In this document: in pieces, positions 18,863 to 37,773 of the stretch | How the letters are laid out: every line of letters starts with the position of its first letter | Numbering within the stretch: position 1 is the first letter of the stretch | DNA from: a bacterium | Lineage (GTDB): Bacteria > Patescibacteriota > Patescibacteriia > 2-01-FULL-39-33 | Assembly: GCA_029558735.1 (NCBI GenBank) | Contig: JAKQDP010000054.1 | Coordinates: 1-61,020, forward strand | Reading direction: 5' to 3' | Length of the DNA: 61,020 bases | The notes under the pieces: generated by a model | Told to the model about the DNA's origin: nothing | Database searches by the model: none | Seen by the model: only the letters and a program-made list of their open reading frames with translations | Made by a program: the position numbers and the translations under genes

Positions 18863-18879
18863 ATAAATCATAAATAGAT

Positions 18880-24366: not shown

Positions 24367-24368
24367 AT

Positions 24369-26656: not shown

Positions 26657-26696
26657 TTTTCATTCTCAATTTGCACTGGAGAGGAGGTGATGCCAA

Positions 26697-26801
26697 ATGC
26701 GCGATCAGACAAGCAGTCAGCGATTGACGGGCCTGAGCATTAAGGCACTGACGATGCCCAAGTCTCTTGCGACCTGCAAGGCACCAAGCAACTGCCATTA
26801 A
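26697..26801 (+). CDS. untracked 34-aa candidate precursor peptide
   Basis: GGAGG (26683-26687) lies 9 nt before ATG 26697. Translation: MRDQTSSQRLTGLSIKALTMPKSLATCKAPSNCH, TAA at 26799-26801. It starts 41 nt after the rSAM stop and is followed by a terminator. Confidence 0.5.
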   Translation: MRDQTSSQRLTGLSIKALTMPKSLATCKAPSNCH

Positions 26802-26815
26802 TGCAAGCAAGCATC

Positions 26816-26855
26816 GGAGGCTGGAAAAAAGAATTTTCAGCCTCCCTTTTATTTT
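26816..26855 (+). terminator. intrinsic terminator after the small peptide ORF
   Basis: GGAGGCTG (26816-26823) pairs with CAGCCTCC (26838-26845), then CTTTTATTTT. Confidence 0.75.
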
Positions 26856-26881
26856 CTAAAACATTAATATAGAATAAAAGT

Positions 26882-27364
26882 ATGACTGGGATTTTATTAA
26901 GAAAAATCAGCACTAAAGACAAAAAGTATTTTGCCAAATGGTGGCGGGACGCAGATTTAATCAAGTTAACAAGCGGTTGCCTTGATCCTATCTCAGATAA
27001 AGACGTCGATAAATACTTTTCATCAATGATTGACAGCAAGGTTGATCATCATTTTATGATTATTATTGATAAAAAAGTAATTGGCCATATAGTTCTCAGC
27101 CAAAGAAAAAATGGCTGGTATGAAACCCAGATTATAATTGGCGACAAGAATTGTTGGGGTAGGGGCTATGGCACGGAGGCAATTAAAAAACTGCTTCGTA
27201 AAGCGAAAAACATGGGTATTTCAAAAGTATATCTTGAAGTCAGGCCAACCAATGTCAGGGCAATTACCGCTTATAAAAAGAGTGGATTTTTAGAGAAAGG
27301 CATTATTAAATACCCAGACAACCCCTACTTGCCAGAAACACTTAGAATGGAGATAAATCAATGA
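26882..27364 (+). CDS. GNAT family N-acetyltransferase (RimJ/RimL-like)
   Basis: 160 aa. WGRGYGTEAIKKLLRKAK acetyl-CoA-binding motif and YKKSGF tail. Confidence 0.85.
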   Translation: MTGILLRKISTKDKKYFAKWWRDADLIKLTSGCLDPISDKDVDKYFSSMIDSKVDHHFMIIIDKKVIGHIVLSQRKNGWYETQIIIGDKNCWGRGYGTEAIKKLLRKAKNMGISKVYLEVRPTNVRAITAYKKSGFLEKGIIKYPDNPYLPETLRMEINQ

Positions 27365-27382: not shown

Positions 27383-28603
27383 CTAAATAATCTTCAAATC
27401 CTTGCCTATCTTTTCCATATTTTCCAATAAATAATCGATCTGCTTTCTGGTGTGGGTGGCCAAGGTGGTAAGGCGAAGGCGTTCTTGGCCTTCAGCAACT
27501 GCCGGCCGCCTGACAGCCGGAGCCAAAATGCCGGCGGCAAGCAACTTGTCTGAAAAAACAATGGCATTCTTTTCCGAGTGTAGAAGCGGTGGCACAATCG
27601 GCATAAAATCAGCTCCCAAAACTTCAAAACCCATTCTTTTTAATTCGCTTCTTAAGTATGAAGCGTTTTCTTTTGTTTTTTCTCGCAAACTATCGCCATT
27701 TTTTATCAGCTCCAATGACTTTATCAATCCGGCGACAACACAGGGAAGAATCGGATCGGAAAAAATATAACTCCTAGCTGTCACCCGCAAATATTCCGAC
27801 AAGTCAGATGTGGTGGTCGTCACAAACCCGCCGATACTGCCCCAGGCCTTAGTAAAGCTACCCATAATCACATCAACATCCTTATTAACGCCGAGATGAT
27901 GACACAATCCCTCTCCATGGGGACCAAGAACGCCAGTACCATGCGAATCGTCAACATAAACCAAAGCATCATATTCTCCGGCTAGTTTTACAATTGTCTT
28001 CAAATCGGCAAAATCGCCGTCCATACTGAAAACGCCATCAGTAATAATCAACTTCCGTTTTTTCTTATGTTCAGCTAGTAATCTCTCTAAATCTTTCATA
28101 TCATTGTGCTTATATATCTCCCTTTCCGCGCGCGATAAACGAACAGAATCAATAATACTGGCGTGATTGATTTCATCGCTCAAAATAACACCGGCCTGAT
28201 TGCCAAAAGGCAATGGCATTTTATAAGGAAATGGGTCAACAAGCATCCTAATCACACCGGCGTTGGCCAAAAAACCGGAAGAAAAAGTGATGGAGTCGGC
28301 CACTTCCATAAATTCAGCAATCTTTTTCTCTAGCTCAACCTGGACATCGAGAGTGCCGGACAGCATACGAGTACTGCCGGAACCGACGCCATATTTCCTA
28401 ACTCCGTCAATTACCGCTTCCGCCATTTCCTTGTTGCCTGCCAAGCCCAGATAATTATTTGAACAAAAAGTCAAATATTTCTTGCCATTAATGAGAACCT
28501 CGGGGTGATGCGATGGTCCGGAGACGATATTGATCTTGGGATACAATTTGCCTAATTTTAAAATTTTGACAATCCTGCCAAAGTATTTTAATGAATTTTT
28601 CAT
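27383..28603 (-). CDS. alpha-oxoamine synthase family PLP enzyme (BioF/Kbl/Spt/CqsA family)
   Basis: 406 aa. NNYLGL, HASIIDS, DDSHGTG and PLP lysine SFTKAWG. The subfamily cannot be assigned by eye. Confidence 0.9.
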   Translation of the reverse strand: MKNSLKYFGRIVKILKLGKLYPKINIVSGPSHHPEVLINGKKYLTFCSNNYLGLAGNKEMAEAVIDGVRKYGVGSGSTRMLSGTLDVQVELEKKIAEFMEVADSITFSSGFLANAGVIRMLVDPFPYKMPLPFGNQAGVILSDEINHASIIDSVRLSRAEREIYKHNDMKDLERLLAEHKKKRKLIITDGVFSMDGDFADLKTIVKLAGEYDALVYVDDSHGTGVLGPHGEGLCHHLGVNKDVDVIMGSFTKAWGSIGGFVTTTTSDLSEYLRVTARSYIFSDPILPCVVAGLIKSLELIKNGDSLREKTKENASYLRSELKRMGFEVLGADFMPIVPPLLHSEKNAIVFSDKLLAAGILAPAVRRPAVAEGQERLRLTTLATHTRKQIDYLLENMEKIGKDLKII

Positions 28604-28607
28604 TTGT

Positions 28608-28789
28608 TTATCTGATTAATTGTAAATTTATAATTTTTTTGTGCCTCCCGGTGCCGGAGCCGGCGTCAAAAATCCGGTCGCCGTCTTTCACGCTCGTAGC
28701 CTCAACGATATCCCGCAATAATTCTTGATAAGGAATGGCTTTGTTTAAAATGTCATAACTTTTAAAATACTTTCACCAAAATTTTTCAT
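28608..28789 (-). pseudogene. remnant of a class I SAM-dependent methyltransferase (frameshifted, truncated after motif I)
   Basis: Minus strand reads ..KSYDILNKAIPYQELLRDIVEATSVKDGDRIFDAGSGTGRHKKIINLQLIR*. The MKNFGESILK start is in another frame across a T4A4 run. Only about 58 codons remain, versus about 200-250 for intact family members. Confidence 0.5.
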
Positions 28790-28828
28790 CTAACATATCT
28801 TAAGATAATTTTTAATTTTCAAACAGAT

Positions 28829-28945
28829 AAATTCCAAATTTAAAATCTCAAGCTCCAAATAAATCACAATTTTACAAATCCTAAATGATCATTTTTAAAA
28901 TTTGAAATTTATTTGTTATTTGTAATTTTGAATTTATGATTTCAC
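28829..28945. repeat. AT-rich palindromic IVS-like element (no cargo)
   Basis: The right arm contains ATTTATTTGTTATTTGTAATTTTGAATTT, an exact 29-nt match to the reverse complement of 30760-30800. The left arm contains CAAGCTCCAAATAAAT, the reverse complement of 18977-18992. Confidence 0.6.
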
Positions 28946-29006
28946 TATCAGGTTCCGAAGCCAGGCGGGGGCAAGCCCCGCCCCTACAGGCGAGGAGACC
29001 TCGCCC

Positions 29007-30752
29007 CTACACGTACATCCCCTCAATCTCTTTTTGATAATGACCTTCTATCACCTGACGGCGAAGCTTCAAGGTCGGAGTGAGCTCGTCCCGTTCTTGA
29101 GAAAATTCATCAGTCAGTAAAACAAATTTTCTTATCCGCTCATAATCAGCCAAATCCTGATTGATTTTATCCAACCGCTGGCCAAACAGCTCCAAAATAT
29201 CCGGCCGATTGGCCAATTTGCTTGGCACACCCAAGGGCAATCCTTTTTCCTTGAGAAAAATCCCCACTTCCTGCCAATCCGGCACAATCAACGCCGAAAC
29301 AAATTTGCGCCGATGGGCTATTGCCATTGATTGAGCCACAAATCGGTCGATATTAATTTTTTGCTCTAGTGCTTCCGGCCAAATATTTTTGCCACCACTG
29401 GTCAGCATCATTTCTTTTTTCCGGCCGATGATTACCAATCGATTGTCCCGGCCAATAAAGCCGAGGTCGCCGGTCTTAAACCAGCCGTCATCAGTAAAAG
29501 CTTCTTTGGTCGCCTCCTGGTCGTTAAAATAACCTCGGAAAACATTTGGTCCCTTGACCAAAATTTCCTTGTCGCCGGAAATTTTTATTTCCACCCCGTC
29601 AACTGCATAGCCGACCGTGCCGAATTTGACAGCTTCGGCCCGATTGACCGCCACCACCGGCGCCGTTTCGGTCAAGCCGTAGCCCTCGACAATCAAAATC
29701 CCCAACTTTTGGAAAAACTTGGCAATCTTCGGGTCCAGACTGGCACCGCCCGACACTGTCAGCCGAAGACGGCCGCCAAGCTGGGCGCGTATTTTTTTAA
29801 ATACCAATAAATCACCAAGCTTATAACCCGGACTGCCCTGACGCTGGCGCAAGGCCCAATGAAATATATTTTTCTTAATCTTTGATCCGCTAGAAACTTT
29901 GTCCCAAATGATATCATAGAATTTTTCAAATACCCGCGGCACGGCAATCATCACTGTCGGCCGGACTTCTTTCAAATTTTGAGCCAATTGCTTAAAGCCC
30001 TCACCATAGGCAATGGTGGCGCCAAATAGTAGCGGCGTATAATATCCGGCGGTTCGCTCCAAAACATGGGACAAGGGTAGAAAAGACAAAAAAACATCGC
30101 CCTTTTTGACCGGCACCATATCATTAATCGCCGCCACATTGCTCAAAAAATTACCATGGCTAAGCGCTACTCCCTTGGGCAGGCCGGTAGTGCCCGAAGT
30201 ATAAATAATACTGGCAATGTCGTCGGATTTGACTGCCGGCAAAGACAAATCGTCAGCCGGATTTGTGCCACTGGCAATAAATTCATCCCAACTCAAACAC
30301 AATCCGCTACAGGAATCGATCGTTTCCCGGTTGACTTTTTCCATAACGATAATTTTCTCCGGCTTAGCCAAACCAGCTTGACCGATTAATACTTTATTGA
30401 GTAGAGACTCGTCAGATACGAATAAAATCTTAGCTCGGCAATGATCCAAAATATAATTGATGCTCTTGGCGCTCAAAGTGGTATGGATAGGCACGCTGAT
30501 GGCGCCAAGCGCCATCGCCGCCAAATCCGCCATCACCCACTCCGGCCGGCCATTAGATAAAATCGCCACCCGATCGCGCCGCTTGACGCCCAAGACATTC
30601 AAGGCCGAAACCACTCGCCTGATCTCTTGCGCCAATTCCTTGTAACTAAGGGAAAAATAAACTCCGTCTTGCTTGTATTTTAAAACCGGCCGATTAGCTT
30701 TCTGTTCGGCCAGGGCGAAAAAATTTGCGGGAATAGTTTTTTGTAAATCCAT
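29007..30752 (-). CDS. long-chain fatty acid--CoA ligase (AMP-binding enzyme, FadD-like)
   Basis: 581 aa. AMP-binding motif YTSGTTGLPKGV, plus GYGLTET and TGDLG..D motifs. Confidence 0.9.
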   Translation of the reverse strand: MDLQKTIPANFFALAEQKANRPVLKYKQDGVYFSLSYKELAQEIRRVVSALNVLGVKRRDRVAILSNGRPEWVMADLAAMALGAISVPIHTTLSAKSINYILDHCRAKILFVSDESLLNKVLIGQAGLAKPEKIIVMEKVNRETIDSCSGLCLSWDEFIASGTNPADDLSLPAVKSDDIASIIYTSGTTGLPKGVALSHGNFLSNVAAINDMVPVKKGDVFLSFLPLSHVLERTAGYYTPLLFGATIAYGEGFKQLAQNLKEVRPTVMIAVPRVFEKFYDIIWDKVSSGSKIKKNIFHWALRQRQGSPGYKLGDLLVFKKIRAQLGGRLRLTVSGGASLDPKIAKFFQKLGILIVEGYGLTETAPVVAVNRAEAVKFGTVGYAVDGVEIKISGDKEILVKGPNVFRGYFNDQEATKEAFTDDGWFKTGDLGFIGRDNRLVIIGRKKEMMLTSGGKNIWPEALEQKINIDRFVAQSMAIAHRRKFVSALIVPDWQEVGIFLKEKGLPLGVPSKLANRPDILELFGQRLDKINQDLADYERIRKFVLLTDEFSQERDELTPTLKLRRQVIEGHYQKEIEGMYV

Positions 30753-31251
30753 ATTTATTAAATTACAAATTCAAAATTACAAATAACAAATAAATCTCAA
30801 ATAAAAAATATCAAAAATTATTTTTCTCTTGATTTTTCCACGATAGAGGCAAATATTTTTAATAATTCTTCAGTTTCCCTTATTAAAGGTCGCATCCTTA
30901 AATCAAGCTCTGGATTTGCTTCAATAATTAAATAAAGCCAATAAATTGTTTCCTTTGCTTCCTTACGGCAAATTCTCATTCTAAACAAAAAATCCTTTTT
31001 TGTTTCCGTTTCGTTAGCTTCCCTATAGTTTGCCCCCAAAGATGTTCCCGATCTGACAACCTGATTTATTAAATTATTATTTACAATATCGTATTTGAAT
31101 GATCGCGCCATCTTAATAATTCTTTTGCCATATTCCAGCGTCCTATCTTCCAAATCATAATGCTTGTTTTTATTTTTATCAACATCCTCCATTGAATCTT
31201 ATTTGGATTTGTAATTTATTTGGAACTTGAAATTTGGAATTTGTGGTTTTT
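30753..31251. mobile_element. IVS-like inverted-repeat element carrying the four-helix-bundle protein gene
   Basis: The 30753-30815 and 31196-31251 flanks are approximate reverse complements built from ATTTGTAATTT/GAATTTG words. The same arms occur without cargo at 18880-19015 and 28829-28945. Confidence 0.45.
30818..31192 (-). CDS. four-helix-bundle protein (23S rRNA intervening-sequence protein family)
   Basis: 124 aa. VRSGTSLGANYREA...KKDFLFRMRICRKEAKETIYWLYLI matches the family signature. Confidence 0.85.
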   Translation of the reverse strand: MEDVDKNKNKHYDLEDRTLEYGKRIIKMARSFKYDIVNNNLINQVVRSGTSLGANYREANETETKKDFLFRMRICRKEAKETIYWLYLIIEANPELDLRMRPLIRETEELLKIFASIVEKSREK

Positions 31252-31287
31252 AAAATCGGCTTCTCGTGAGGGCAAAAAAAGCCGATT

Positions 31288-32079
31288 TTATTTGCTTGGT
31301 TCGTCAATAAATTCCGTAATTTTGGAAAAAAGCTCTTCTTTCAAATTTTCATCAACGATAGTATGGAGGTTGCTTTCAAACCAATATATCAATTTGTAGC
31401 TGGAGCCCAAATTTTCATGGAGGTACTGGGCGCTTTTGGGGTTGACCACCGGATCATTGGTGGCGTGCATAATCATCGCCGGCGTCTTCACCTGACCCAA
31501 ATTGGCGACTGTCTCGTACTTGATAAATTTGAAAAACTGGCGCAATGCCTTTATTGGCACCACCGGATAGGACATTTCGTCGGCCATATCGATATAATCG
31601 GTCCGATAAACCCGCCGCGGCTTACTATAATAAGGTTTAAGCCAGCCATAAAGGCAGACGCGCAACTTGATCAGCCGCTGAAACCGCAAGCGAATCGGCG
31701 TCCCCAAAGATATTACGCCGGCGGTTGTCTCGGGAAATTTACGCGCTAAATAAAAAGCGACATTGCCCCCGAAAGACACGCCGATAATAAAAATTTTCTC
31801 CACCCGGCGCTTCAATTCTTGATAATCAGCTTCAGCTTTGTCTTGCCAATCGGAAACTGTCGTCTGCTGCAAATCGGCCGGCGAGGCGCCATGTCCGGCC
31901 AGCGTCGGAGCGTAGACCGTCAGTCCTCGGTCTGACAGTGCCTGACTCAATTCCTTGAATTGGCGCGGCGTGGAAGTAAATCCATGGAACATCAAAACGC
32001 CCACTCGCGAATTATTGTCCAACAAAATCGGGTCGGCGCCAGTGATATTCTTTTTGATCATTTCTGTTTTGCCTGTCAT
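31288..32079 (-). CDS. alpha/beta hydrolase (carboxylesterase/lysophospholipase-like)
   Basis: 263 aa. HGFTSTP oxyanion region, nucleophile elbow GVSFGG, distal D and H. Confidence 0.85.
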   Translation of the reverse strand: MTGKTEMIKKNITGADPILLDNNSRVGVLMFHGFTSTPRQFKELSQALSDRGLTVYAPTLAGHGASPADLQQTTVSDWQDKAEADYQELKRRVEKIFIIGVSFGGNVAFYLARKFPETTAGVISLGTPIRLRFQRLIKLRVCLYGWLKPYYSKPRRVYRTDYIDMADEMSYPVVPIKALRQFFKFIKYETVANLGQVKTPAMIMHATNDPVVNPKSAQYLHENLGSSYKLIYWFESNLHTIVDENLKEELFSKITEFIDEPSK

Positions 32080-32080
32080 A

Positions 32081-32452
32081 TCAGCTGATTATTTTCTGCA
32101 CCCGAGTGATAATTTCCTGGGGCATTACTTCGGTCTTGGCCCAAAAATCCAACGCCCCCAAATTTTCCGCTTCCACATACAAGCTTTTTTTGTTCAGATT
32201 GGTCAGCATCACCGTCGGGATATTTTTAGTGGCCGAGTCGGCTTTGAGTCGCTTCAATACTTCCATGCCATCCATACCATCCATCACCAGATCGCACAAA
32301 ATCAAATCCGGCTTGTTTTTTTTAGCCGCTGCCAAGCCCTTGCTGCCGTTGGTCGCTTCCAATAATTTAAGACCCGCCAATTTAAAAACAGTCCGATACA
32401 GACTAATCTGATCCGGATCATCTTCAATTAATAATACTTTTGGGGTCTTCAT
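32081..32452 (-). CDS. stand-alone response regulator receiver domain
   Basis: 123 aa. VLLIEDD, LILCDLVMDGMDG, and the conserved T and K. The stop sits 1 nt from the hydrolase start. Confidence 0.9.
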   Translation of the reverse strand: MKTPKVLLIEDDPDQISLYRTVFKLAGLKLLEATNGSKGLAAAKKNKPDLILCDLVMDGMDGMEVLKRLKADSATKNIPTVMLTNLNKKSLYVEAENLGALDFWAKTEVMPQEIITRVQKIIS

Positions 32453-32455
32453 ATT

Positions 32456-34186
32456 TTATGATTGAGATTCGTTTATTTTATATCTCAGTAATTTGGTATA
32501 ATCCTTCTCCGTCTTGATGGTTCTGATTTTTTTATTCAGCGGCAAAAAAATAGTAAAAGTGGTGCCCTGATTTTCTTGGCTGGTAAAGCTGATTTTTCCA
32601 CCATGGGCATCAATGATCTTTTTGACGATAAACAGCCCCAGGCCCGAGCCGTCGGCATACATATTGACCGCATTTTTGGCGCGGGAAAATTTGTCAAACA
32701 TCTTGGCCTGGTCGGCCGCCGGAATGCCGATGCCATCATCAGCTACCGTCAGTTTAACGCCTAATACATCTTGCGACAAGCCGATAGCCACCTTGCCCTT
32801 TTTGGTATATTTAATGGCATTGTCCACCAGATTAAAAATTGCATGACGCAAAAAATCACCGTCCGCCATTACCGGCTTAACCGGCTTGGCCGGCCGCTTG
32901 AATAGCAATTTGATTTTCTTCTCTTTGGCCAAGGGCGACAGGTCTTCCACCACCGAGTCAATAATCGCCTCCACTTGAACTGGTTTGACATTCTCCTTGA
33001 CTAGTTTGAATTCTTCCGTATCCATCTCCGAGGCTTTTAGAATATCGTTGATAATAGCGCTAAGCTTTTTGGCCTTCTGAAAAATATTATCAATAAAATG
33101 GAGCTGTTTATCTCTAGGAAGCTTGTCCATGGCGCCTTCTTTGAACATTGAGGAGGTACCTAAAATGACGGAGACCGGCGTCTTGAGCTGGTGCGAAGCG
33201 ATATCCAAAAATTCCGAACGCATTTCCAATAGCTTCTTTAAATGCTCGTTGTTTTTCTGAATCGCTTTGTTGGCATTAACCAATTTTTCAGTCGTTTTTT
33301 TCAACTCATTGGTCAATTTTTCCATTTGTTCGCGCCGACTAATTTCCCGGCGCACCGACTGAACCAATAAAAGAGCAAAAACCAAAGTAATGAGAAAAAT
33401 TACCGTACGATAAAAAATCTGAATCGCGGAAGATGACAAAAATATTTCTATAAAAGTCACCAAAATAATAAACACGACGAATATTTGAGTCGCCACCAAT
33501 TTAACATCTAAAAAATTAAATTTGATAATGTTATAAGCAATTATCGCCACCATCACAAACAAAGCAATCGGACCGGTCCAGGCATAACGAAAATTTCCCA
33601 ACGCGACAAAAACCATATTAATTATCGCCGAATACATTAGGGGCGGAATAACACTGAACAAAAGCAAAAAAACTCTTTTTCGCTGAATACCGGTTGAAGA
33701 TAAAAATTTTACCAATAAAGCCAGCACCCCGATTCCCATAAACACAAAAAAGTAAATAAAATAAAAGGGATACCAATTGCCATAAATCAAGTTTCTAACG
33801 CCGCCGACAAATTCCAAATCAACAATGATTTGGCGATTGAAAAACAAAAAATAACCGATTACCGCCAGCGGCAAATACAAAGCCGGCCGAAATATTTTTT
33901 TTACCGGCATAGTTTCTCCCGGATAGACCAAGGTGAAATAAAAAAAGCTGTGAGCAATGCAAGCGCCGGCAAAATGCAAAACCAAAGACCAGCCATAAAC
34001 AATTTGCCAATTTTCAGCCACATTTTCATACATCATCATCGCAAAAGACCACGCCGCCAGTGAAGCGGAGAAAATAAAAAACCAGCGATTCACAATATTG
34101 CGCTTATTTTGAAGAATAATAGTCACCCCCAAAGCCAGATTCAAAAAAGCAACCGAAACCAAAATTATTATTTTTAATTCAGTCAT
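32456..34186 (-). CDS. sensor histidine kinase with 7TM-type N-terminal membrane domain
   Basis: 576 aa. About 7-8 TM helices in the first 280 aa. H-box FLDIASHQLKTP. ATPase boxes NLVDNAIKYT, DDGIGI, GSGLGLF. Confidence 0.9.
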   Translation of the reverse strand: MTELKIIILVSVAFLNLALGVTIILQNKRNIVNRWFFIFSASLAAWSFAMMMYENVAENWQIVYGWSLVLHFAGACIAHSFFYFTLVYPGETMPVKKIFRPALYLPLAVIGYFLFFNRQIIVDLEFVGGVRNLIYGNWYPFYFIYFFVFMGIGVLALLVKFLSSTGIQRKRVFLLLFSVIPPLMYSAIINMVFVALGNFRYAWTGPIALFVMVAIIAYNIIKFNFLDVKLVATQIFVVFIILVTFIEIFLSSSAIQIFYRTVIFLITLVFALLLVQSVRREISRREQMEKLTNELKKTTEKLVNANKAIQKNNEHLKKLLEMRSEFLDIASHQLKTPVSVILGTSSMFKEGAMDKLPRDKQLHFIDNIFQKAKKLSAIINDILKASEMDTEEFKLVKENVKPVQVEAIIDSVVEDLSPLAKEKKIKLLFKRPAKPVKPVMADGDFLRHAIFNLVDNAIKYTKKGKVAIGLSQDVLGVKLTVADDGIGIPAADQAKMFDKFSRAKNAVNMYADGSGLGLFIVKKIIDAHGGKISFTSQENQGTTFTIFLPLNKKIRTIKTEKDYTKLLRYKINESQS

Positions 34187-34232
34187 AAATTATAATTTGA
34201 ATATATATATTATAACAGTTTTCACGCCAATT

Positions 34233-34263
34233 AAAAAGCTCCCGCTAAATTACTAACGGGAGC
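34233..34263 (-). terminator. intrinsic terminator after the methyltransferase gene
   Basis: Minus strand: GCTCCCG-TTAGTAATTTAG-CGGGAGC followed by TTTTT. Confidence 0.65.
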
Positions 34264-34270
34264 AGAACGA

Positions 34271-35224
34271 TCAAGCTTTCCTGGCAACAATCACCACGCC
34301 TTGCTTGGCATAGCATTCGCCAAAGCTGGAGCTGATTATCTCGAATCCGGTTTGCTCGAGGAGCGCCTGCCACTCCTCAACGCAGAGGTAATGAGCATAG
34401 CCGGCCCGCTCCACTCTGTTCATAAACGCCGACAATTTTTTCGCCGGCACGCCATAACGAATGGCTTTATACAATTCTGTTAGCCGGCCGGTCTTAATCA
34501 ACCAACCAACAGAATCTCTCAAAATCGCCCCCCAATCAGGCTCGGGCTTGGGGGCGGAAAAGGCCAAGCAACCATTGGGCCGCAAAACTCGATTGATGTC
34601 TTGCAGACAGTTAATGAGGGCGAGCCGCTTTTGGGCGACCAATTTGCCGCCCTCAAACCACCAGCCGGCATACATCAAGCCGCCCAAGCTGGAAACAACC
34701 GAATCAACACTACCATCCCAAATGGGCAACCGAGACATCGACGACCCCTGAATCAAGGCGACCTTGCCGCAATAATTGGCTTGCCGCAAAGCCTCGGGCA
34801 CTTCGACCAGGGCCTTCCAGTCGATATCAATGGCAAAAATCTTTCTGATTGCTTTGCCATCGACTTGCAACAATTGCGAGCAAAAACCGCCGGTACCGCA
34901 GCCAAGATCAACCAGCACTTCGCCGATATGGGAATCAGCTTGCCTGGCTAAAGTCTGCTGCATAGAAATGTAGGGATGGGAGGTCGAGTTGACCAGCCAG
35001 AGAACTTCTTTGTTCCAGCGATAAAAATCCAAAATAAAATTCTTGATTTCCGGGTGCTTCCTGATTTGCCGAAATTCTTCATCACTGAAGAATTGCGGCG
35101 CCTCCGGCAAAAACTCCTCATCAATTTCGTAAAAATTCACTTTGTGGGATCTTTCCCACTTGATTTTCTGCCGTTCCTGCAGCGGCAAATATCGCAATTT
35201 CTTGGCAATATGACTGTGCGACAT
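34271..35224 (-). CDS. class I SAM-dependent methyltransferase
   Basis: 317 aa. Motif I VLVDLGCGTGGF, with an N-terminal extension of about 100 aa of unknown function. Confidence 0.8.
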   Translation of the reverse strand: MSHSHIAKKLRYLPLQERQKIKWERSHKVNFYEIDEEFLPEAPQFFSDEEFRQIRKHPEIKNFILDFYRWNKEVLWLVNSTSHPYISMQQTLARQADSHIGEVLVDLGCGTGGFCSQLLQVDGKAIRKIFAIDIDWKALVEVPEALRQANYCGKVALIQGSSMSRLPIWDGSVDSVVSSLGGLMYAGWWFEGGKLVAQKRLALINCLQDINRVLRPNGCLAFSAPKPEPDWGAILRDSVGWLIKTGRLTELYKAIRYGVPAKKLSAFMNRVERAGYAHYLCVEEWQALLEQTGFEIISSSFGECYAKQGVVIVARKA

Positions 35225-35342
35225 CTTTGCTACCTCCTCTTGTTCCTGTTTGGCGTTTGATTATTAAGGTCCAATTAAATCAACCAAACTGATTAACTTA
35301 ATTGGAACGGCAAACCGATAAAAATCAGTTTGCCGAAAAAAA

Positions 35343-36155
35343 TTAATACTGGTAAAATCCTTCACCGGTTTTGCGACCGAGTTTGCCGGCTTCGACCAGC
35401 TCAACCAGACACTGGGGCGGTTGTTCGTGGTGCTGCTGAAAAACCGACAACACCACATCCAGACCGACCATGTCCATGGTCTGGCATGGTCCGACCGACA
35501 TATTCATGGCAATCCGCCAGGCCAAGTCGATATCCGCCGGAACAGACACCCCTCGGTCAATCAATTCCAGAGCGGCGCGTTTGATCGCCTGCCAAATAAA
35601 ATTGAAGACCAGTCCCGGATTTTCCGCTCGGGCGATAATCGGCGTCAATCCCAGCGACCAGACAAAATGTTCAGCCTCGGCCAAAGTCTGCTCGGTAGTG
35701 CCAGTGCCACGCATCAATTCAACCAGCGGCCGCTGTTTGATCGGCGGATAGAAATGCATATTGACCAGCCGCGACTTAAACTGCGAATTAGTCAAATAGG
35801 CCTCCAGTTCAGAAACACAGATTGCCGAACTGTTACTGGCCAAGATTGTGGCCGTCGGAGAAAAACAGCTACTGAGCTGCTTAAAAACCTCTCCTTTTAT
35901 TTCCCGGTCTTCGTTGACCGTCTCAATCACGATCAGTTTCCGACCAGCCCACTGGTTGGCCGCCGACTCAATATTAGTAAACAATTGAATCTGATAAGCA
36001 GCCAGTTTATCGGCGACCACGGCCAAACGCGATTGGTCCCGATCGACAATGGCAGTCAAATAATTATTTGCTGCCACCCAACTGGCGATGTCACAGCCCA
36101 TCATGCCGGCGCCGACAATTAAAACTCCGCCTTGGTATTCTTGATTCTTTTCCAT
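35343..36155 (-). CDS. 3-hydroxyacyl-CoA (3-hydroxybutyryl-CoA) dehydrogenase family protein
   Basis: 270 aa. Rossmann VLIVGAGMMG, C-terminal GRKTGEGFYQY typical of the family. Strong SD (TAGGAGGGG). Confidence 0.9.
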   Translation of the reverse strand: MEKNQEYQGGVLIVGAGMMGCDIASWVAANNYLTAIVDRDQSRLAVVADKLAAYQIQLFTNIESAANQWAGRKLIVIETVNEDREIKGEVFKQLSSCFSPTATILASNSSAICVSELEAYLTNSQFKSRLVNMHFYPPIKQRPLVELMRGTGTTEQTLAEAEHFVWSLGLTPIIARAENPGLVFNFIWQAIKRAALELIDRGVSVPADIDLAWRIAMNMSVGPCQTMDMVGLDVVLSVFQQHHEQPPQCLVELVEAGKLGRKTGEGFYQY

Positions 36156-36243
36156 TTTAGCCCCTCCTAAGTGGTTGAAAAGAACAAATCTTATTTCAAT
36201 TTATTTTATCATAATTTATAAATTATGTCAAACCCCATTTGCC

Positions 36244-36474
36244 AATAAATAAAAAGTGGAGAGACTTTGACCCGATTGATCAAAAATCTCTCCACTATAG
36301 TAACGCCATCTCCTCTTTCAAGGGTTTCGTTTTGGTCGCGACTCCAGTCCTATTGATGCTAGTCGAGTCGGCCTCACGACTTTTCTCCTCTCCGATAACT
36401 CGGGAGGTCCCCTTCGATCGAGGAAATGGCGAAGAGACCAGAAGAAACCAATAGAGACTAAAGTTCTGTTCACT
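36244..36474 (-). ncRNA. structured leader RNA or sRNA of unknown class, ending in an intrinsic terminator, upstream of the dehydrogenase gene
   Basis: Its own promoter is at 36481-36509. A long-range helix, CGCCAUUUCCUC (plus-strand coordinates 36420-36431) with GAGGAGAUGGCG (36304-36315), is fully paired only on the minus strand (one G-U). Nested hairpins are present. The terminator AGUGGAGAGA..UCUCUCCACU plus UUUUAUUUAUU lies at 36244-36296. Confidence 0.5.
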
Positions 36475-36480
36475 ATCTAA

Positions 36481-36509
36481 AGTTTATCATAAAATAATCA
36501 AATTGTCAA
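36481..36509 (-). promoter_or_regulatory. sigma70-like promoter of the leader RNA/dehydrogenase unit
   Basis: Minus strand: TTGACA (36504-36509), 17 nt, TAAACT (36481-36486). Confidence 0.55.
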
Positions 36510-36518
36510 ATTTCTGTC

Positions 36519-36547
36519 TTGACTTAAAAGCCGGTTAGTGGTAAACT
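36519..36547 (+). promoter_or_regulatory. sigma70-like promoter of the FadL-like gene (divergent)
   Basis: TTGACT (36519-36524), 17 nt, TAAACT (36542-36547). Confidence 0.5.
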
Positions 36548-36597
36548 TTTAAGTTGAAGCTCTTTAACAAAAACCCTGAACAAAAAGGAGAAACCAG

Positions 36598-37773
36598 ATG
36601 AAACAAACTGCTCTTTTTATTATCGGTTTAACAATTGTCGCTTTCCCGGCCGCCGGCGGCGGTCTGAATCGAATCGGCGGAATGGGCCCAAGGCATGGCG
36701 CCTTAAGTGGCAGTTATGCGGATGACTCGGCCTTGTTCTGCTACAATCCAGCCGGTCTGGCCAATTTTCAAAGAAGTTATGCTGATTTAAGCGTCGAAGT
36801 ATTCACGCCTCACTTCCGCCTCAAAAATCGCCTAACCGGCCGAAGCAACGCTTCGGCGCAAAACGTTTATCATCTAATACCACTGGCGGGGGTGATAGAG
36901 CCAGTTAATGACCATTGGGTCTGGGGCGTGGGAATAACCACACCTTACGGCTTTGGCGCCAAATTTGATTCAGATTGGCTTAGCGGCATTTACGAAAGCG
37001 AGACCTTGCTTGGCTTGGTTAATTTAACGCCGGCTGTGGCCTTCAAATTAACTGACAACTTGTCTTTAGGAGTTGGTCTTAATATCGGCTATGGACAATT
37101 CAAATATCGAGCGCCGTTTGACATTCAGGGCTGGGAAACGCCGATTAAAAGCGACAGTGAAGGCGATGGTTGGGGGCTGGGCGCTATTGCCGGCTTAAAT
37201 TACCGACCAACCCCCAAACTGGAGATAGGAATTTCTTATCTTAGCGAAATGAAAGTCCGCTTGTCGGGTGAAACAAAAATCAACGACCCGACCTCTTTAT
37301 TCGAACTAACCGACCGCTTTGATAGCGCGTTCACCTTTCCTGACAGACTGAGTGGAACCATCGCCTATCATGGCCGGCGAACACTGGTGGCTTTTAGCGC
37401 CAATTGGTATGGCTACAGCCAACAGGTTAATTCCCTGACACTTGATTTTGAGAAATTGCCGCTAACAAAAACCACCATCCTGGATTGGCGCGACAACTAT
37501 AGCCTTCATCTGGGCGCCAGGCTAAACATCAATCACTGCTGGTCCACTAGTTTTGGCCTCGGCTACCAAACAGCCGCCATCCCCCCTCAAACCATCAGTC
37601 AATACACCCCCGACGCTGATGGCTGGGATCTGGCTTGGGGGCTGAATTTTTCCCGAGGAAGTTTCCACTGTCAACTCCACGCTATTTACGGCTGGGGAGA
37701 AATGGAAACCAGAACGAGAAAATATTCCGCCCAAACCTGGACAATCGGCGCCGGCATTGGCTGGCTATTCTAA
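36598..37773 (+). CDS. FadL/TodX-family outer-membrane hydrophobic-compound channel (beta-barrel)
   Basis: 391 aa. Signal peptide MKQTALFIIGLTIVAFPAAG, N-terminal hatch-like NPAGLA, alternating beta-strand pattern, C-terminal GIGWLF aromatic terminus. Confidence 0.75.
   Translation: MKQTALFIIGLTIVAFPAAGGGLNRIGGMGPRHGALSGSYADDSALFCYNPAGLANFQRSYADLSVEVFTPHFRLKNRLTGRSNASAQNVYHLIPLAGVIEPVNDHWVWGVGITTPYGFGAKFDSDWLSGIYESETLLGLVNLTPAVAFKLTDNLSLGVGLNIGYGQFKYRAPFDIQGWETPIKSDSEGDGWGLGAIAGLNYRPTPKLEIGISYLSEMKVRLSGETKINDPTSLFELTDRFDSAFTFPDRLSGTIAYHGRRTLVAFSANWYGYSQQVNSLTLDFEKLPLTKTTILDWRDNYSLHLGARLNINHCWSTSFGLGYQTAAIPPQTISQYTPDADGWDLAWGLNFSRGSFHCQLHAIYGWGEMETRTRKYSAQTWTIGAGIGWLF

What the first reader, a model, noticed from the sequence alone, without database searches (positions are those of the whole stretch)
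27383..37773. Fatty-acyl / alpha-oxoamine synthase neighbourhood with embedded two-component system, divergent FadL channel and a riboswitch-like leader
The following genes are all co-oriented on the minus strand:
- 3-hydroxyacyl-CoA dehydrogenase
- SAM methyltransferase
- 7TM histidine kinase
- stand-alone receiver
- alpha/beta hydrolase
- the four-helix-bundle element
- FadD-type acyl-CoA ligase
- the methyltransferase stub
- alpha-oxoamine synthase (AOS)

A FadL-type hydrophobic-compound channel is transcribed divergently from the same promoter region. This is not one operon. I see a terminator after the methyltransferase (34233-34263) and repeat elements between later genes, so functional linkage is an inference.

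Established chemistry supports two readings. AOS enzymes condense an acyl-CoA with an amino acid.
- (a) In Vibrio and Legionella, the AOS members CqsA/LqsA make alpha-hydroxyketone autoinducers. These are sensed by multi-TM histidine kinases (CqsS/LqsS) and, in Legionella, by a receiver-only regulator (LqsR) encoded alongside. A dehydrogenase step completes CAI-1.
- (b) Spt-type AOS enzymes, together with an acyl-CoA or acyl-ACP synthetase, a reductase and a GNAT-type ceramide synthase, make bacterial sphingolipids. A GNAT gene abuts the AOS gene here.

Either a lipid-derived signal with its own sensor, or scavenging of exogenous fatty acids (FadL to FadD) into an aminolipid, would be notable for a reduced genome that otherwise looks CPR-like.
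Basis: inference. Interest (0 to 1): 0.75.

Follow-up and report, generated by a model that had tools for sequence, protein, structure and literature searches.

The report
Oxoamine synthase–sensor kinase lipid cluster
A tiny-genome (CPR/Parcubacteria) bacterium keeps a lipase, a fatty-acid activating enzyme, an amino-ketone-forming enzyme and membrane-embedded sensor kinases together, as its distant relatives do; this looks like a lipid-derived signalling system that was already predicted in 2020, and the neighbouring fatty-acid channel, dehydrogenase and methyltransferase are a separate module.

Summary
The region is a mosaic, not one pathway.

- **Module 1 (conserved):** monoacylglycerol-lipase-like hydrolase, FadD-type ligase and alpha-oxoamine synthase (AOS), with polytopic HisKA_7TM histidine kinases and a single-domain receiver. 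In 10 of 11 relatives examined, the AOS lies within two genes of such a kinase or 7TM protein. The hydrolase–FadD–AOS order recurs in a Staskawiczbacteria contig.
- **The AOS:** it belongs to a monophyletic Parcubacteria clade carrying a unique 10-18 residue insertion. It reaches no NCBIfam cut-off for Kbl, BioF, Spt or CqsA, and it never has Tdh beside it.
- **Module 2 (separate):** FadL, 3-hydroxyacyl-CoA dehydrogenase and methyltransferase. None of 26 other FadL loci has AOS, FadD or the hydrolase.
- **The "riboswitch-like leader":** it is not a FadL leader. It is a candidate ~230-nt sRNA on the opposite strand, with its own promoter-like site and terminator, and it has no Rfam match.
- **The abutting GNAT:** it pairs with an inserted radical-SAM/SPASM gene. 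The syntenic GNAT and a second 7TM kinase lie outside the finding's coordinates (22129-25019).

My best reading is a Cqs/Lqs-like, fatty-acid-fed signal synthase plus sensor (confidence about 0.45). Bernard et al. 2020 already predicted this for CPR. Aminolipid synthesis remains a live rival.

The parts
27383..28603 (-). Alpha-oxoamine synthase (406 aa) of a Parcubacteria-specific subfamily with an inserted loop at residues ~123-138 (DPFPYKMPLPFGNQAG)
   Evidence: PF00155 at 194.6 bits. Below every NCBIfam equivalog cut-off. The clade is monophyletic in 29/30 bootstraps. The insertion is seen only in this clade plus L009 and L020.
28604..29006 (-). 403-nt spacer holding a 36-aa ORF with a SAM-binding-like DAGSGTG motif (28608-28718) and AT-rich dispersed repeats (28815-28942)
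   Evidence: The 'methyltransferase remnant' reading rests on the motif alone.
29007..30752 (-). FadD/ACSL-type long-chain fatty-acid ligase (581 aa)
   Evidence: AMP-binding 279.5 bits plus AMP-binding_C_3. The best NCBIfam match is FadD11 at 349 bits, below its cut-off. A 57%-identical orthologue sits upstream of the AOS in L113.
30818..31192 (-). Four-helix-bundle (23S rRNA IVS-type) protein. It is probably an insertion between the hydrolase and FadD genes.
   Evidence: PF05635 and TIGR02436. Flanked by a 17-nt inverted repeat that is 94% complementary. Absent from L113, where the hydrolase and ligase genes overlap.
31288..32079 (-). Alpha/beta hydrolase of the monoacylglycerol-lipase / carboxylesterase type (263 aa)
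   Evidence: Hydrolase_4 at 84.8 bits. The closest solved structures are LipS (123 bits) and bacterial monoacylglycerol lipases (100-110 bits). A 49%-identical orthologue precedes FadD in L113.
32081..32452 (-). Stand-alone receiver (123 aa), packed tightly between the kinase and the hydrolase (3-nt gap on one side, 1 nt on the other)
   Evidence: PF00072 at 81.6 bits and no output domain. Coordinates.
32456..34186 (-). Polytopic HisKA_7TM histidine kinase (576 aa), sensor group B
   Evidence: HisKA_7TM 54.9, HisKA 46.8, HATPase_c 105.5 bits. Seven hydrophobic segments in the first 275 aa. Its sensor is 56% identical to L004 HKa, which sits beside methyltransferase-3HCDH-FadL. It aligns over its full length (27-29% identity) with the kinases directly downstream of the AOS in L112-L114 and L009.
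34238..34263 (-). Intrinsic-terminator-like hairpin between the methyltransferase and the kinase
   Evidence: 11-bp stem with 6 GC pairs, followed by TTTTT.
34271..35224 (-). Class I SAM methyltransferase (317 aa). Belongs to module 2.
   Evidence: Methyltransf_31/11/25. Orthologues (39-62% identity) lie beside 7TM kinases and/or 3HCDH in L004, L088 and L105. The PDB search was uninformative.
35343..36155 (-). 3-hydroxyacyl-CoA dehydrogenase family protein (270 aa). Belongs to module 2.
   Evidence: 3HCDH_N at 101 bits and 3HCDH at 64.7 bits. Orthologues pair with the methyltransferase in L004 and L088.
36245..36474 (-). Candidate ~230-nt sRNA gene. It has a promoter-like TTGACA-17-TAAACT (36509->36481), a conserved core (AGUCGUGAGGC ... 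GCGACCAAAGCGAAA), and a terminator hairpin (36296->36257) followed by a U-run.
   Evidence: Present in five genomes. No Rfam family.
36598..37773 (+). FadL/TodX-family outer-membrane-type beta-barrel (391 aa) with a signal peptide, an NPAG hatch motif and a C-terminal ...GWLF
   Evidence: PF03349 at 133 bits. Alignment. AlphaFold pLDDT 82.7; Foldseek TM 0.80 to E. coli FadL, E=5.7e-26. Belongs to a small CPR-only clade.
25256..27364 (+). Inserted pair on the opposite strand: a radical-SAM/SPASM peptide-maturase-like gene (25256-26656) and a small GNAT (26882-27364). The pair separates the AOS from its syntenic downstream partners.
   Evidence: PapB-family 138.7 bits, below its cut-off. GNAT. 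The same rSAM-GNAT pair occurs in L114. L001 lacks the insertion.
22129..25019 (-). The syntenic downstream partners of the AOS, outside the finding's coordinates: a GNAT (216 aa, 24369-25019) and a HisKA_7TM-GAF histidine kinase (745 aa, 22129-24366; sensor group C)
   Evidence: In L001 the order is AOS-GNAT(60% id)-kinase(55% id) with no interruption. AOS-GNAT-7TM kinase also occurs in L116.

Best explanation
The 10-kb neighbourhood juxtaposes two conserved Parcubacteria modules plus insertions.

**Module 1** is a fatty-acid-fed alpha-oxoamine synthase signalling unit, built like Cqs/Lqs quorum-sensing loci. It spans 27383-34186, and its displaced tail lies at 22129-25019. The proposed steps are:
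1. The monoacylglycerol-lipase-like hydrolase frees fatty acids from scavenged (host) lipids.
2. The FadD-type ligase makes acyl-CoA. This step is needed because such organisms are thought not to make fatty acids.
3. The PLP-dependent AOS condenses the acyl-CoA with an amino acid to give a lipophilic alpha-aminoketone.
4. The syntenic GNAT may N-acylate the product.
5. The product partitions into the membrane and is read by polytopic HisKA_7TM histidine kinases.
6. The kinases phosphorylate single-domain receivers.

**Module 2** is a separate fatty-acid handling or sensing unit: methyltransferase, 3-hydroxyacyl-CoA dehydrogenase, a candidate sRNA and FadL. It is tied to its own 7TM kinase in Falkowbacteria.

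**Shown:** gene identities, conserved adjacency, AOS clade identity, and the independence of FadL from the AOS.

**Inferred:** the substrates, that the product is a signal, and that the kinases are its receptors.
For: - **AOS-kinase adjacency.** 10 of 11 relatives have a HisKA_7TM kinase or 7TM protein within two genes of the AOS: P0013, L001, L112-L117, L009 (Saccharibacteria) and L020. The gaps are often -4 to +21 nt. The eleventh contig, L003, ends 3.7 kb after the AOS.
- **Background kinase density.** It is 2.3 kinases per 100 kb in 18 other CPR loci and 0.2 per 100 kb in 77 ordinary Kbl loci.
- **Kinase homology.** The AOS-adjacent kinases align over the full length of the window's 7TM kinase. 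All have 7-9 membrane segments and no large external domain.
- **Other arrangements.** L114 has AOS-kinase-receiver. L020 has AOS-7TM/DUF835-PAS kinase-sigma54 regulator.
- **Fatty-acid supply.** Hydrolase-FadD-AOS recurs in L113 at 49/57/63% identity. The hydrolase is closest to lipases and monoacylglycerol lipases.
- **Not Kbl.** The AOS forms its own clade with a unique insertion. It has no Tdh neighbour in the 12 CPR-type AOS loci held as DNA (the window and duplicate copies included), against 34 of 78 ordinary Kbl loci.
- **Literature (Bernard et al. 2020, Table S4).** Single Kerfeldbacteria genomes carry both a Tdh-linked AOS and a kinase-linked AOS. Kinases beside CPR AOS genes match a CqsS N-terminal sensory HMM at E=1e-17 to 1e-19. 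RpfB/FadD-type ligases lie within two genes of the AOS in Kaiserbacteria and Komeilibacteria.
Against: - The AOS is not a CqsA/LqsA orthologue, and its substrates are unknown.
- In this window the AOS is not directly beside a kinase. The group C kinase is separated from it by a 2.4-kb insertion, and the group B kinase is five genes upstream.
- The group B kinase's closest orthologue (L004, 56% identical in the sensor) sits beside methyltransferase-3HCDH-FadL with no AOS nearby.
- The sensor groups beside the AOS differ between lineages.
- Recurrent PlsC-type acyltransferase and GNAT neighbours fit lipid assembly at least as well as signalling.
- The high sequence conservation of the AOS (55-77% across lineages) is more typical of a metabolic enzyme than of an autoinducer synthase.
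- I could not test homology of the sensors to CqsS/LqsS myself.
- No expression or chemical data exist.
Confidence: 0.45

Rival explanations
1. Aminolipid or sphingolipid-like synthesis from scavenged fatty acids. FadD (with or without a PlsC-type acyltransferase) and the AOS build a long-chain amino-ketone backbone. The syntenic GNAT N-acylates it, as bacterial ceramide synthase does. The 7TM kinases monitor membrane state rather than a diffusible signal.
For: - FadD lies directly upstream of the AOS here and in L113.
- A GNAT lies directly downstream of the AOS in L001 and L116 and is syntenic here.
- PlsC/Aas-like acyltransferases are immediately upstream of the AOS in L116 (8-nt overlap) and L117, and lie near it in L115, L112 and P0013.
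- A CDP-alcohol phosphatidyltransferase lies nearby.
- The S. multivorum Spt structure scores almost as well as Kbl (257 against 275 bits).
Against: - All three NCBIfam Spt models score far below their cut-offs: 328.6/640, 284.5/500 and 213.3/670.
- No acyl carrier protein or CerR-type reductase sits beside the AOS in any locus examined.
- I know of no precedent for a sphingolipid or aminolipid operon that invariably carries a histidine kinase.
- Homology of the GNAT to bacterial ceramide synthase was not tested.
- The library held no paper containing both 'serine palmitoyltransferase' and 'Candidate Phyla Radiation'.
Confidence: 0.25
2. The AOS is an ordinary Kbl-type (or broad BioF/Kbl-type) enzyme of glycine/threonine/acetyl-CoA metabolism. 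Its neighbours are unrelated or merely regulatory.
For: - The best solved relatives are Kbl (275 bits) and the Thermus BioF/Kbl enzyme (272 bits).
- The NCBIfam Kbl and BioF models are the top hits, at ~387 bits.
- Identity to Kbl-type enzymes is 38-42%.
- All catalytic residues are kept.
- Sequence conservation within the clade is high.
Against: - The scores are below every curated cut-off.
- The clade branches outside the Kbl group and carries a unique insertion.
- No Tdh lies beside it in the 12 CPR-type AOS loci held as DNA, against 34 of 78 Kbl loci.
- CPR genomes with a Tdh-Kbl pair carry the kinase-linked AOS as a second copy (Bernard et al. 2020 Table S4).
- A long-chain ligase sits upstream, not an acetyl-CoA source.
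Confidence: 0.08
3. No functional unit. 7TM kinases and lipid genes are simply common in this stretch of Parcubacteria chromosomes, and the adjacency is inherited synteny. Alternatively, the kinases respond to something else nearby, such as a radical-SAM-modified peptide.
For: - The window lies in a conserved housekeeping backbone (ArgRS, ThrRS ... S1, CDP-OH transferase, FtsH, PilB-like ATPase) shared with L001, L004, L007 and L089.
- Two 7TM kinases and two receivers occur within 20 kb.
- rSAM/SPASM genes recur near the AOS in the window, L003, L114 and P0013.
- FadL loci also often carry 7TM kinases.
Against: - Apart from the kinase, the flanking genes differ completely between AOS loci, yet the AOS-kinase pair persists from Parcubacteria to Saccharibacteria and to a sigma54-containing bacterium.
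- The intergenic gaps are operon-like.
- The kinase density elsewhere is far lower.
Confidence: 0.12

Closest known systems
Vibrio CqsA/CqsS and Legionella LqsA/LqsR/LqsS alpha-hydroxyketone quorum sensing
   Same: An alpha-oxoamine synthase that uses an acyl-CoA is encoded beside a polytopic membrane histidine kinase with no large external domain. In some loci a receiver-only regulator is present too (AOS-kinase-receiver in L114; the receiver at 32081-32452 here).
   Different: - The AOS belongs to another subfamily: NF005526 scores 193.6 against 428, CqsA structures score 90 bits, and the clade has its own insertion.
- The sensor is a HisKA_7TM domain with 7-9 segments, whereas CqsS/LqsS are described with six (my knowledge).
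- The kinase has no fused receiver.
- The receiver is 123 aa with no extra domain.
- A lipase-like hydrolase and a FadD ligase are part of the cluster, which would supply acyl-CoA from scavenged lipid.
CPR 'CqsA homologue / CqsS-like kinase' synteny reported by Bernard et al. 2020 (mSystems 5:e00414-20, PMC7567580)
   Same: This is the same kind of locus. The paper reports 362 CPR AOS homologues, 51 of them beside kinases matching CqsS HMMs, with HdtS-like (PlsC-type) and RpfB (FadD-type) neighbours in some.
   Different: - That study treated all AOS homologues as CqsA-like, including Tdh-linked Kbl genes.
- Here the kinase-linked genes are resolved as a distinct clade marked by an insertion.
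- The hydrolase-FadD-AOS order is shown to be conserved.
- In this window the unit is rearranged and interrupted.
Bacterial ceramide synthesis cluster (Spt, ACP, acyl-ACP synthetase, GNAT-type ceramide synthase, CerR; Caulobacter type)
   Same: An AOS with an AMP-forming fatty-acid ligase upstream and a GNAT acyltransferase downstream.
   Different: No ACP and no CerR-type reductase. The Spt models score far below their cut-offs. A histidine kinase is always present.
Kbl/Tdh threonine cleavage and the Thermus thermophilus BioF/Kbl enzyme (PDB 7POA)
   Same: These are the closest relatives in sequence (38-42% identity; 272-275 bits). The fold and the catalytic residues are the same.
   Different: No Tdh partner. 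The clade is separate. There is a 10-18 residue insertion after the PLP-phosphate helix. The neighbours are kinase and lipid genes.
E. coli FadL-FadD fatty-acid uptake, and Aas lysophospholipid re-acylation
   Same: - The FadL fold is present (TM 0.80 to E. coli FadL).
- A FadD-class ligase is present.
- The PlsC-type acyltransferases beside the AOS in relatives resemble the Aas acyltransferase domain.
   Different: FadL and FadD are not linked in relatives. FadL is 20% identical to the E. coli protein, and it sits in a lineage generally regarded as lacking an outer membrane.
Ralstonia PhcB/PhcS (methyltransferase-made 3-hydroxy fatty acid methyl ester signal with its sensor kinase). This is a resemblance recalled from memory and was not tested.
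   Same: In module 2 a SAM methyltransferase sits beside a membrane kinase in the window, L004, L006 and L105, with 3-hydroxyacyl-handling enzymes (3HCDH; a FabZ-like protein in L004).
   Different: No sequence test against PhcB or PhcS was possible. The methyltransferase has only generic class I matches.

Membership tests
Alpha-oxoamine synthase superfamily (PLP fold-type I) | PF00155 above the gathering score, and the catalytic Lys/His/Asp retained | tested here: met
   194.6 bits against a cut-off of 19.7. K252 in the S-F-T-K motif, H147, D218/D219 and H221 are invariant in the clade and align with Kbl and Spt.
CqsA/LqsA autoinducer synthases | Reaches the NCBIfam NF005526 cut-off (428 bits) | tested here: not met
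   193.6 bits. CqsA structures score 90 bits against 275 for Kbl.
CqsA/LqsA autoinducer synthases | The gene is encoded beside a polytopic sensor histidine kinase | tested here: met
   True in 10 of 11 relatives. In the window the kinases lie 4-5 genes away on either side.
CqsA/LqsA autoinducer synthases | The product is an alpha-hydroxyketone or amino-ketone autoinducer | not testable with these tools
   Needs enzymology and LC-MS.
CqsS/LqsS sensor kinases | A multi-pass N-terminal sensor without a periplasmic domain, followed by HisKA and HATPase_c | tested here: met
CqsS/LqsS sensor kinases | The sensor domain is homologous to the CqsS/LqsS N-terminal domain | not testable with these tools
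   No CqsS or LqsS sequence was available to me. Pfam assigns HisKA_7TM. Bernard et al. report matches to a CqsS_sensory_Nter HMM at E=1e-17 to 1e-19 for kinases beside CPR AOS genes.
CqsS (hybrid kinase) | A C-terminal receiver fused to the kinase | tested here: not met
   No Response_reg domain in either kinase.
Kbl (2-amino-3-ketobutyrate CoA ligase) | Reaches the NCBIfam NF005394 (460) or TIGR01822 (493) cut-off | tested here: not met
   386.6 and 311.4 bits.
Kbl (2-amino-3-ketobutyrate CoA ligase) | A threonine dehydrogenase partner lies beside it | tested here: not met
   None of the 12 CPR-type AOS loci held as DNA (the window and duplicate copies included) has one, against 34 of 78 ordinary Kbl loci. 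Only the MDR-type Tdh was searched for.
Kbl (2-amino-3-ketobutyrate CoA ligase) | Branches inside the Kbl clade | tested here: not met
   In a neighbour-joining tree of 103 sequences, the Parcubacteria clade is monophyletic (29/30 bootstraps) and falls outside the Kbl/Thermus/SmSpt group. The tree is distance-based only.
BioF (8-amino-7-oxononanoate synthase) | Reaches the TIGR00858 cut-off (426.45) and has biotin genes nearby | tested here: not met
   386.9 bits. It is 31-33% identical to E. coli BioF. No bio genes lie in the window.
Serine palmitoyltransferase / bacterial ceramide pathway | Reaches an NCBIfam Spt cut-off (NF047600/599/603) | tested here: not met
   328.6/640, 284.5/500 and 213.3/670.
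Serine palmitoyltransferase / bacterial ceramide pathway | An acyl-CoA/ACP synthetase and a GNAT N-acyltransferase lie beside the AOS | tested here: met
   FadD is upstream here and in L113. The GNAT is downstream in L001 and L116 and is syntenic here. Homology of the GNAT to bacterial ceramide synthase was not tested.
Serine palmitoyltransferase / bacterial ceramide pathway | A dedicated ACP and a CerR-type reductase are in the cluster | tested here: not met
   Neither is found in the window or in the 11 related loci.
FadL/TodX outer-membrane channels | PF03349 above the gathering score, the FadL fold, the NPA hatch motif, a signal peptide and a C-terminal aromatic residue | tested here: met
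   133 bits against 29.7. TM 0.80 and E=5.7e-26 to E. coli FadL. NPAG, the signal peptide and ...GWLF are seen. The E. coli FadL equivalog NF007988 scores 81.7 against 585, which is not met.
Riboswitch / cis-regulatory leader of FadL | Matches a known RNA family and lies in the FadL 5' UTR | tested here: not met
   No Rfam match. The element lies upstream of the FadL promoter-like site, and its terminator is on the other strand.

The most novel reading that the evidence does not exclude
The insertion-bearing AOS makes a previously unknown class of lipid-derived messenger (an alpha-aminoketone, possibly N-acylated by the syntenic GNAT) from fatty acids taken from the host. If so, HisKA_7TM would be its receptor family. 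I found no ligand reported for that sensor domain. CPR episymbionts would then have a dedicated chemical channel tied to host-lipid supply. In the Falkowbacteria-like lineage this would be combined with a genuine FadL-type barrel, implying either an outer-membrane-like layer in a supposedly monoderm group or a channel delivered into the host membrane.
Probability: 0.2. Interest if true: 0.8.

Novelty: new variant of a known kind. Interest (0 to 1): 0.5.

Why it matters
CPR/Patescibacteria bacteria are thought to live on other cells and to depend on them for lipids. How they sense hosts or one another is unknown, and almost nothing in their genomes has been tested.

This locus is a compact set of four or five genes: lipase-like hydrolase, fatty-acid ligase, AOS, GNAT and 7TM kinase. 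It can be expressed heterologously to find out what the AOS makes and whether the kinase responds. A positive result would turn a 2020 bioinformatic prediction into a testable signalling system.

This analysis adds several things:
- a clean marker (the inserted loop) that separates the kinase-linked AOS from ordinary Kbl;
- a link between that AOS and fatty-acid salvage;
- evidence that the FadL/dehydrogenase/methyltransferase genes should not be included in the pathway.

The presence of a bona fide FadL barrel in Falkowbacteria-like genomes is an unexplained envelope question in its own right.

Tried and rejected
- **Genome-contig scan.** I used its output as a reference set of 78 ordinary Kbl loci instead.
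- **Viral-contig scan.** It found no relative.
- **Rfam.** At the gathering and permissive thresholds it gave nothing beyond one tRNA and chance-level hits.
- **sRNA structure.** RNAalifold on five copies recovered only a 7-bp helix with no compensatory pair, and the single-sequence folds disagree with each other. I saw compensatory changes in an inner stem by eye only, so the sRNA structure is unresolved.
- **sRNA as a riboswitch.** I considered it as a minus-strand riboswitch for the dehydrogenase. I rejected this as the main reading because a strong promoter-like site (36231->36203, 11/12 matches) lies between its terminator and the gene, and because the downstream gene differs in L007 and L094.
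- **The 'methyltransferase stub'.** tblastx found no homologue. It remains a motif-level guess.
- **PDB search for the methyltransferase.** It was uninformative.
- **First tree script.** It timed out. I replaced it with a faster neighbour-joining analysis.
- **CqsA/CqsS/LqsS reference sequences.** I could not obtain them. Membership rests on NCBIfam and PDB scores, and the sensor homology rests on the literature.
- **Alternative origins.** I considered horizontal transfer or misassembly of the FadL block. I rejected both because the same backbone synteny (ThrRS ... FadL-S1-CDP-OH transferase-FtsH-PilB-like) recurs in independent assemblies, including contigs of 315 and 468 kb.
- **Unused resources.** The third word-index protein search and the HMMER representative search were not used, because no look-ups for genomic context remained.

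Full report
**1. The observation**

| Gene | Coordinates |
|---|---|
| AOS | 27383-28603(-) |
| FadD-type ligase | 29007-30752(-) |
| four-helix-bundle protein | 30818-31192(-) |
| alpha/beta hydrolase | 31288-32079(-) |
| receiver | 32081-32452(-) |
| HisKA_7TM kinase | 32456-34186(-) |
| methyltransferase | 34271-35224(-) |
| 3-hydroxyacyl-CoA dehydrogenase | 35343-36155(-) |
| FadL | 36598-37773(+), divergent |
| GNAT | 26882-27364(+), convergent on the AOS |

- The terminator-like hairpin after the methyltransferase is present (34263->34238).
- AT-rich repeats sit in the spacers around FadD and the four-helix-bundle gene.
- The 'methyltransferase stub' is a 36-aa ORF with a DAGSGTG motif and nothing more.
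- The rest of the window holds housekeeping genes: rpoB/C, three aminoacyl-tRNA synthetases, FtsH, a PilB-like ATPase, TsaD/E, trigger factor, NusA and H+-PPase.
- The closest relatives of the AOS and FadL proteins carry Parcubacteria or Falkowbacteria labels, so the CPR assignment is reasonable.

**2. The AOS is a distinct, CPR-centred subfamily**

- It falls below every curated NCBIfam cut-off:

| Model | Score | Cut-off |
|---|---|---|
| BioF | 386.9 | 426 |
| Kbl | 386.6 | 460 |
| TIGR01825 | 383 | 535 |
| Spt | 328.6 | 640 |
| CqsA-type | 193.6 | 428 |

- Solved structures rank Kbl (275 bits), Thermus BioF/Kbl (272) and S. multivorum Spt (257) close together. CqsA is far behind at 90 bits.
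- Its database relatives form a large Parcubacteria set at 55-77% identity.
- The genome-collection scan returned mostly ordinary Kbl genes, which I used as a reference set.
- In a 103-sequence neighbour-joining tree the Parcubacteria clade is monophyletic (29/30 bootstraps). It lies outside the group that holds all Kbl sequences, the Thermus enzyme and SmSpt.
- All clade members carry a 10-18-residue aromatic and proline-rich insertion, D(P)FPY(F)xL..., right after the helix that binds the PLP phosphate. In the window this is residues 123-138.
- A Saccharibacteria sequence (L009, 46% identity) and an unclassified bacterium (L020, 42% identity) have insertions at the same place. None of 76 Kbl, BioF or Spt sequences does.
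- A Zn-type threonine dehydrogenase lies beside the AOS in 34 of 78 ordinary Kbl loci, but in none of the 12 CPR-type AOS loci held as DNA.
- Bernard et al. (2020), Table S4, list single Kerfeldbacteria genomes with two AOS genes, one beside Tdh and one beside a kinase. They also list Falkowbacteria with canonical Tdh-Kbl pairs.
- The kinase-linked AOS is therefore not the housekeeping Kbl.

**3. What is conserved around the AOS**

I examined eleven related contexts.

| Locus | Lineage | AOS identity to window | Gene order |
|---|---|---|---|
| L112 | Taylorbacteria | 59% | 7TM protein <-> AOS-kinase |
| L113 | Staskawiczbacteria | 63% | hydrolase-FadD-(gap)-AOS-kinase |
| L114 | not named | 62% | AOS-kinase-receiver, with a 4-nt overlap |
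| L115 | not named | 58% | kinase <-> AOS-kinase |
| L116 | not named | 57% | PlsC-type acyltransferase-AOS-GNAT-7TM kinase |
| L117 | not named | 55% | 7TM protein <-> acyltransferase-AOS-kinase |
| L001 | Parcubacteria ARS52 | 73% | 7TM protein-AOS-GNAT-7TM/GAF kinase |
| P0013 | not named | 71% | AOS-formyltransferase-7TM/GAF kinase-x-7TM kinase |
| L009 | Saccharibacteria | 46% | AOS-amidohydrolase-kinase |
| L020 | unclassified bacterium | 42% | three receivers-x-AOS-7TM/DUF835-PAS kinase-sigma54 regulator |
| L003 | not named | 77% | contig ends 3.7 kb after the AOS |

- The kinase catalytic domain starts 0.9-2.6 kb from the AOS in 9 of the 10 relatives held as DNA.
- Kinase density is 2.3 per 100 kb in 18 other CPR loci and 0.2 per 100 kb in 77 Kbl loci.
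- The other flanking genes differ from locus to locus, so the pair itself is what is retained.
- The kinases downstream of the AOS in L112-L114 and L009 align with the window's 576-aa kinase over 92-95% of its length.
- All of them have 7-9 hydrophobic segments in the first ~280 residues and no large external domain.
- The L113 hydrolase and ligase are 49% and 57% identical to the window's, and they overlap by 8 nt.
- The hydrolase is closest to LipS and to bacterial monoacylglycerol lipases.

**4. How the window differs from its relatives**

- In the closest relative with an intact locus (L001), the AOS is followed directly by a 206-aa GNAT and a 7TM-GAF kinase.
- In the window those two genes (24369-25019 and 22129-24366; 60% and 55% identical to the L001 genes) are separated from the AOS. 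The separating block is a 2.4-kb opposite-strand pair: a radical-SAM/SPASM maturase-like gene plus a small GNAT.
The relevant partners lie outside the finding's coordinates.
- The four-helix-bundle gene, flanked by a short inverted repeat, splits the hydrolase-FadD pair.
- Sensor-domain comparison gives three groups:
  - group A is AOS-adjacent in L112, L113, L114 and L009;
  - group B is the window's 576-aa kinase and L004 HKa, 56% identical;
  - group C is the window's and L001's GAF kinases, 62% identical.
- The group B kinase is orthologous to a Falkowbacteria kinase that sits beside methyltransferase-3HCDH-FadL with no AOS within the 21-kb locus.
- Even so, in the window it is packed tightly with the receiver and the hydrolase.

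**5. FadL, dehydrogenase and methyltransferase form another module**

- The FadL protein is a real family member. It has a signal peptide, an NPAG hatch motif and a C-terminal ...GWLF.
- Its AlphaFold model (pLDDT 82.7) superposes on E. coli FadL with TM 0.80.
- It belongs to a small clade of about 15 clusters labelled Falkowbacteria or unlabelled. The next relatives are 27-28% identical.
- None of 26 other FadL loci contains AOS, FadD or the hydrolase.
- The recurrent FadL neighbours are the S1/CDP-alcohol transferase/FtsH/PilB-like backbone. In some lineages methyltransferase, 3HCDH and a 7TM kinase also recur (L004/L090, L088, L105, L006).
- L004 adds a FabZ-like hotdog protein.
- A methyltransferase beside a 7TM kinase recurs in four lineages. 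This recalls the Ralstonia PhcB/PhcS signal pair, but I could not test that resemblance.

**6. The 'riboswitch-like leader'**

- The 442-nt divergent spacer has a FadL promoter-like site at 36519-36547, which leaves about 45 nt of leader.
- Upstream of that site lies a block conserved in four other genomes (L004, L007, L088, L094) whose FadL proteins are only 41-49% identical.
- In the four copies I inspected for this (window, L004, L007, L088), the block ends on the strand opposite to FadL in a hairpin followed by a T-run.
- In the window and in L088 it is preceded by a sigma70-like promoter.
- In L088 it lies beside the dehydrogenase and a tRNA gene, 7 kb from FadL.
- It folds more stably than shuffled sequence (z = -3.7) and matches no Rfam family.
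- With five copies the structure cannot be settled.
- I treat it as a candidate independent sRNA of about 230 nt (36245-36474, minus strand), not as a FadL leader.

**7. Mechanism and prior art**

- The architecture is an AOS, a polytopic kinase and sometimes a receiver-only regulator. To my knowledge only the Cqs/Lqs/Jqs alpha-hydroxyketone systems are built this way.
- Bernard et al. (2020) already reported 362 CPR 'CqsA homologues', 51 of them beside kinases matching CqsS HMMs. The matches include an N-terminal sensory-domain HMM at E=1e-17 to 1e-19. Some loci have HdtS-like (PlsC-type) and RpfB (FadD-type) neighbours.
- My analysis agrees with that report and refines it:
  - the kinase-linked genes form a separate clade marked by an insertion;
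  - the clade is coupled to fatty-acid salvage genes;
  - their 'LuxI-like' neighbours may be the GNAT seen here (inference).
- I therefore favour a fatty-acid-fed signal synthase with its membrane sensor (0.45).
- Synthesis of an aminolipid from scavenged fatty acids is the main rival (0.25). Acyltransferases and a GNAT are equally regular neighbours, and the AOS is unusually well conserved for a signal synthase.
- Plain Kbl function (0.08) and inherited but meaningless synteny (0.12) are less likely.
- Nothing here identifies the substrates or the product.

**8. Verdict**

It is wrong to include FadL, the dehydrogenase, the methyltransferase, the abutting GNAT and a FadL leader.
- Relative to characterised systems this is a new variant of the Cqs/Lqs kind. 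As a prediction it has been in print since 2020, which lowers the surprise.
- The unexplained FadL barrel in a CPR lineage and the candidate sRNA are the freshest items.

Noticed in passing
window 36598-37773; L004, L007, L088-L106: A genuine FadL-fold beta-barrel with a signal peptide, NPAG hatch and C-terminal aromatic signal (TM 0.80 to E. coli FadL). It is resident in Falkowbacteria-like CPR genomes, a group generally regarded as having no outer membrane. Its backbone position next to S1/FtsH is conserved. L098 has two copies about 2.5 kb apart on the same strand. The literature search for FadL with Patescibacteria found nothing relevant.
   Followed up: partly
window 36245-36474 (minus strand); L004 ~9700-9830, L007 ~5735-5870, L088 ~2470-2690, L094 ~1790-1910: A candidate ~230-nt sRNA with a promoter-like site and an intrinsic terminator. 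Its conserved core is AGUCGUGAGGC...GCGACCAAAGCGAAA. No Rfam family matches, and it was found in only five genomes. By eye, compensatory changes appear in the inner stem, but the overall structure is unresolved.
   Followed up: partly
window AOS residues ~123-138 (DNA ~28190-28237); all clade members: A clade-specific aromatic and proline-rich insertion, D(P)FPY(F)xL..., after the PLP-phosphate-binding helix. It marks the kinase-linked AOS and is absent from 76 Kbl, BioF and Spt sequences. Its position in the 3D structure and its role are unknown.
   Followed up: partly
window 25256-27364 (+); L114 2628-4521; L003 12434-13888; the P0013 locus: A radical-SAM/SPASM peptide-maturase-like gene (PapB family, 139 bits, below its cut-off) is paired with a small RimI-like GNAT. 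rSAM genes recur near the AOS in 4 of 12 contexts. I found no obvious precursor-peptide ORF upstream. The surrounding DNA has the lowest GC in the window (0.326 at 24001-26000).
   Followed up: partly
window 28815-28942, 30757-30820, 31202-31256, ~18872-19010: A dispersed AT-rich intergenic repeat (CAAATTTAAAAT-like units). Copies in inverted orientation flank FadD and the four-helix-bundle gene, and another copy lies between ArgRS and ThrRS. It could be a MITE/REP-like element or a shared regulatory site.
   Followed up: no
L112 6945-7898, L117 3590-4567, L001 5392-6066, L020 11160-12335: Kinase-less HisKA_7TM proteins (224-391 aa; the L020 one is fused to DUF835) are encoded right beside the AOS, often divergently, in addition to the 7TM kinase. 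They weakly match the Leptospira LIC10906 membrane-protein family.
   Followed up: partly
L020 8151-15811: An unclassified bacterium (isolate STD1_36; lineage not determined) has the insertion-type AOS in a full signalling operon: three receivers, AOS, 7TM/DUF835, a PAS kinase and a sigma54-dependent regulator. A sigma54-dependent regulator is reminiscent of LuxO downstream of CqsS.
   Followed up: no
L004 3634-9591; L105 3197-6709; L006 3433-6291: A methyltransferase beside a 7TM kinase recurs next to FadL in several lineages. L004 adds a FabZ-like hotdog protein and 3HCDH. This may be a second fatty-acid-derived sensing module.
   Followed up: partly
window 15992-16375 and 16703-18409; L001 14616-17057: An ArgRS gene followed by a stand-alone receiver is conserved between the window and L001, downstream of the AOS-GNAT-kinase block. 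This is a possible cognate receiver for the GAF kinase.
   Followed up: no
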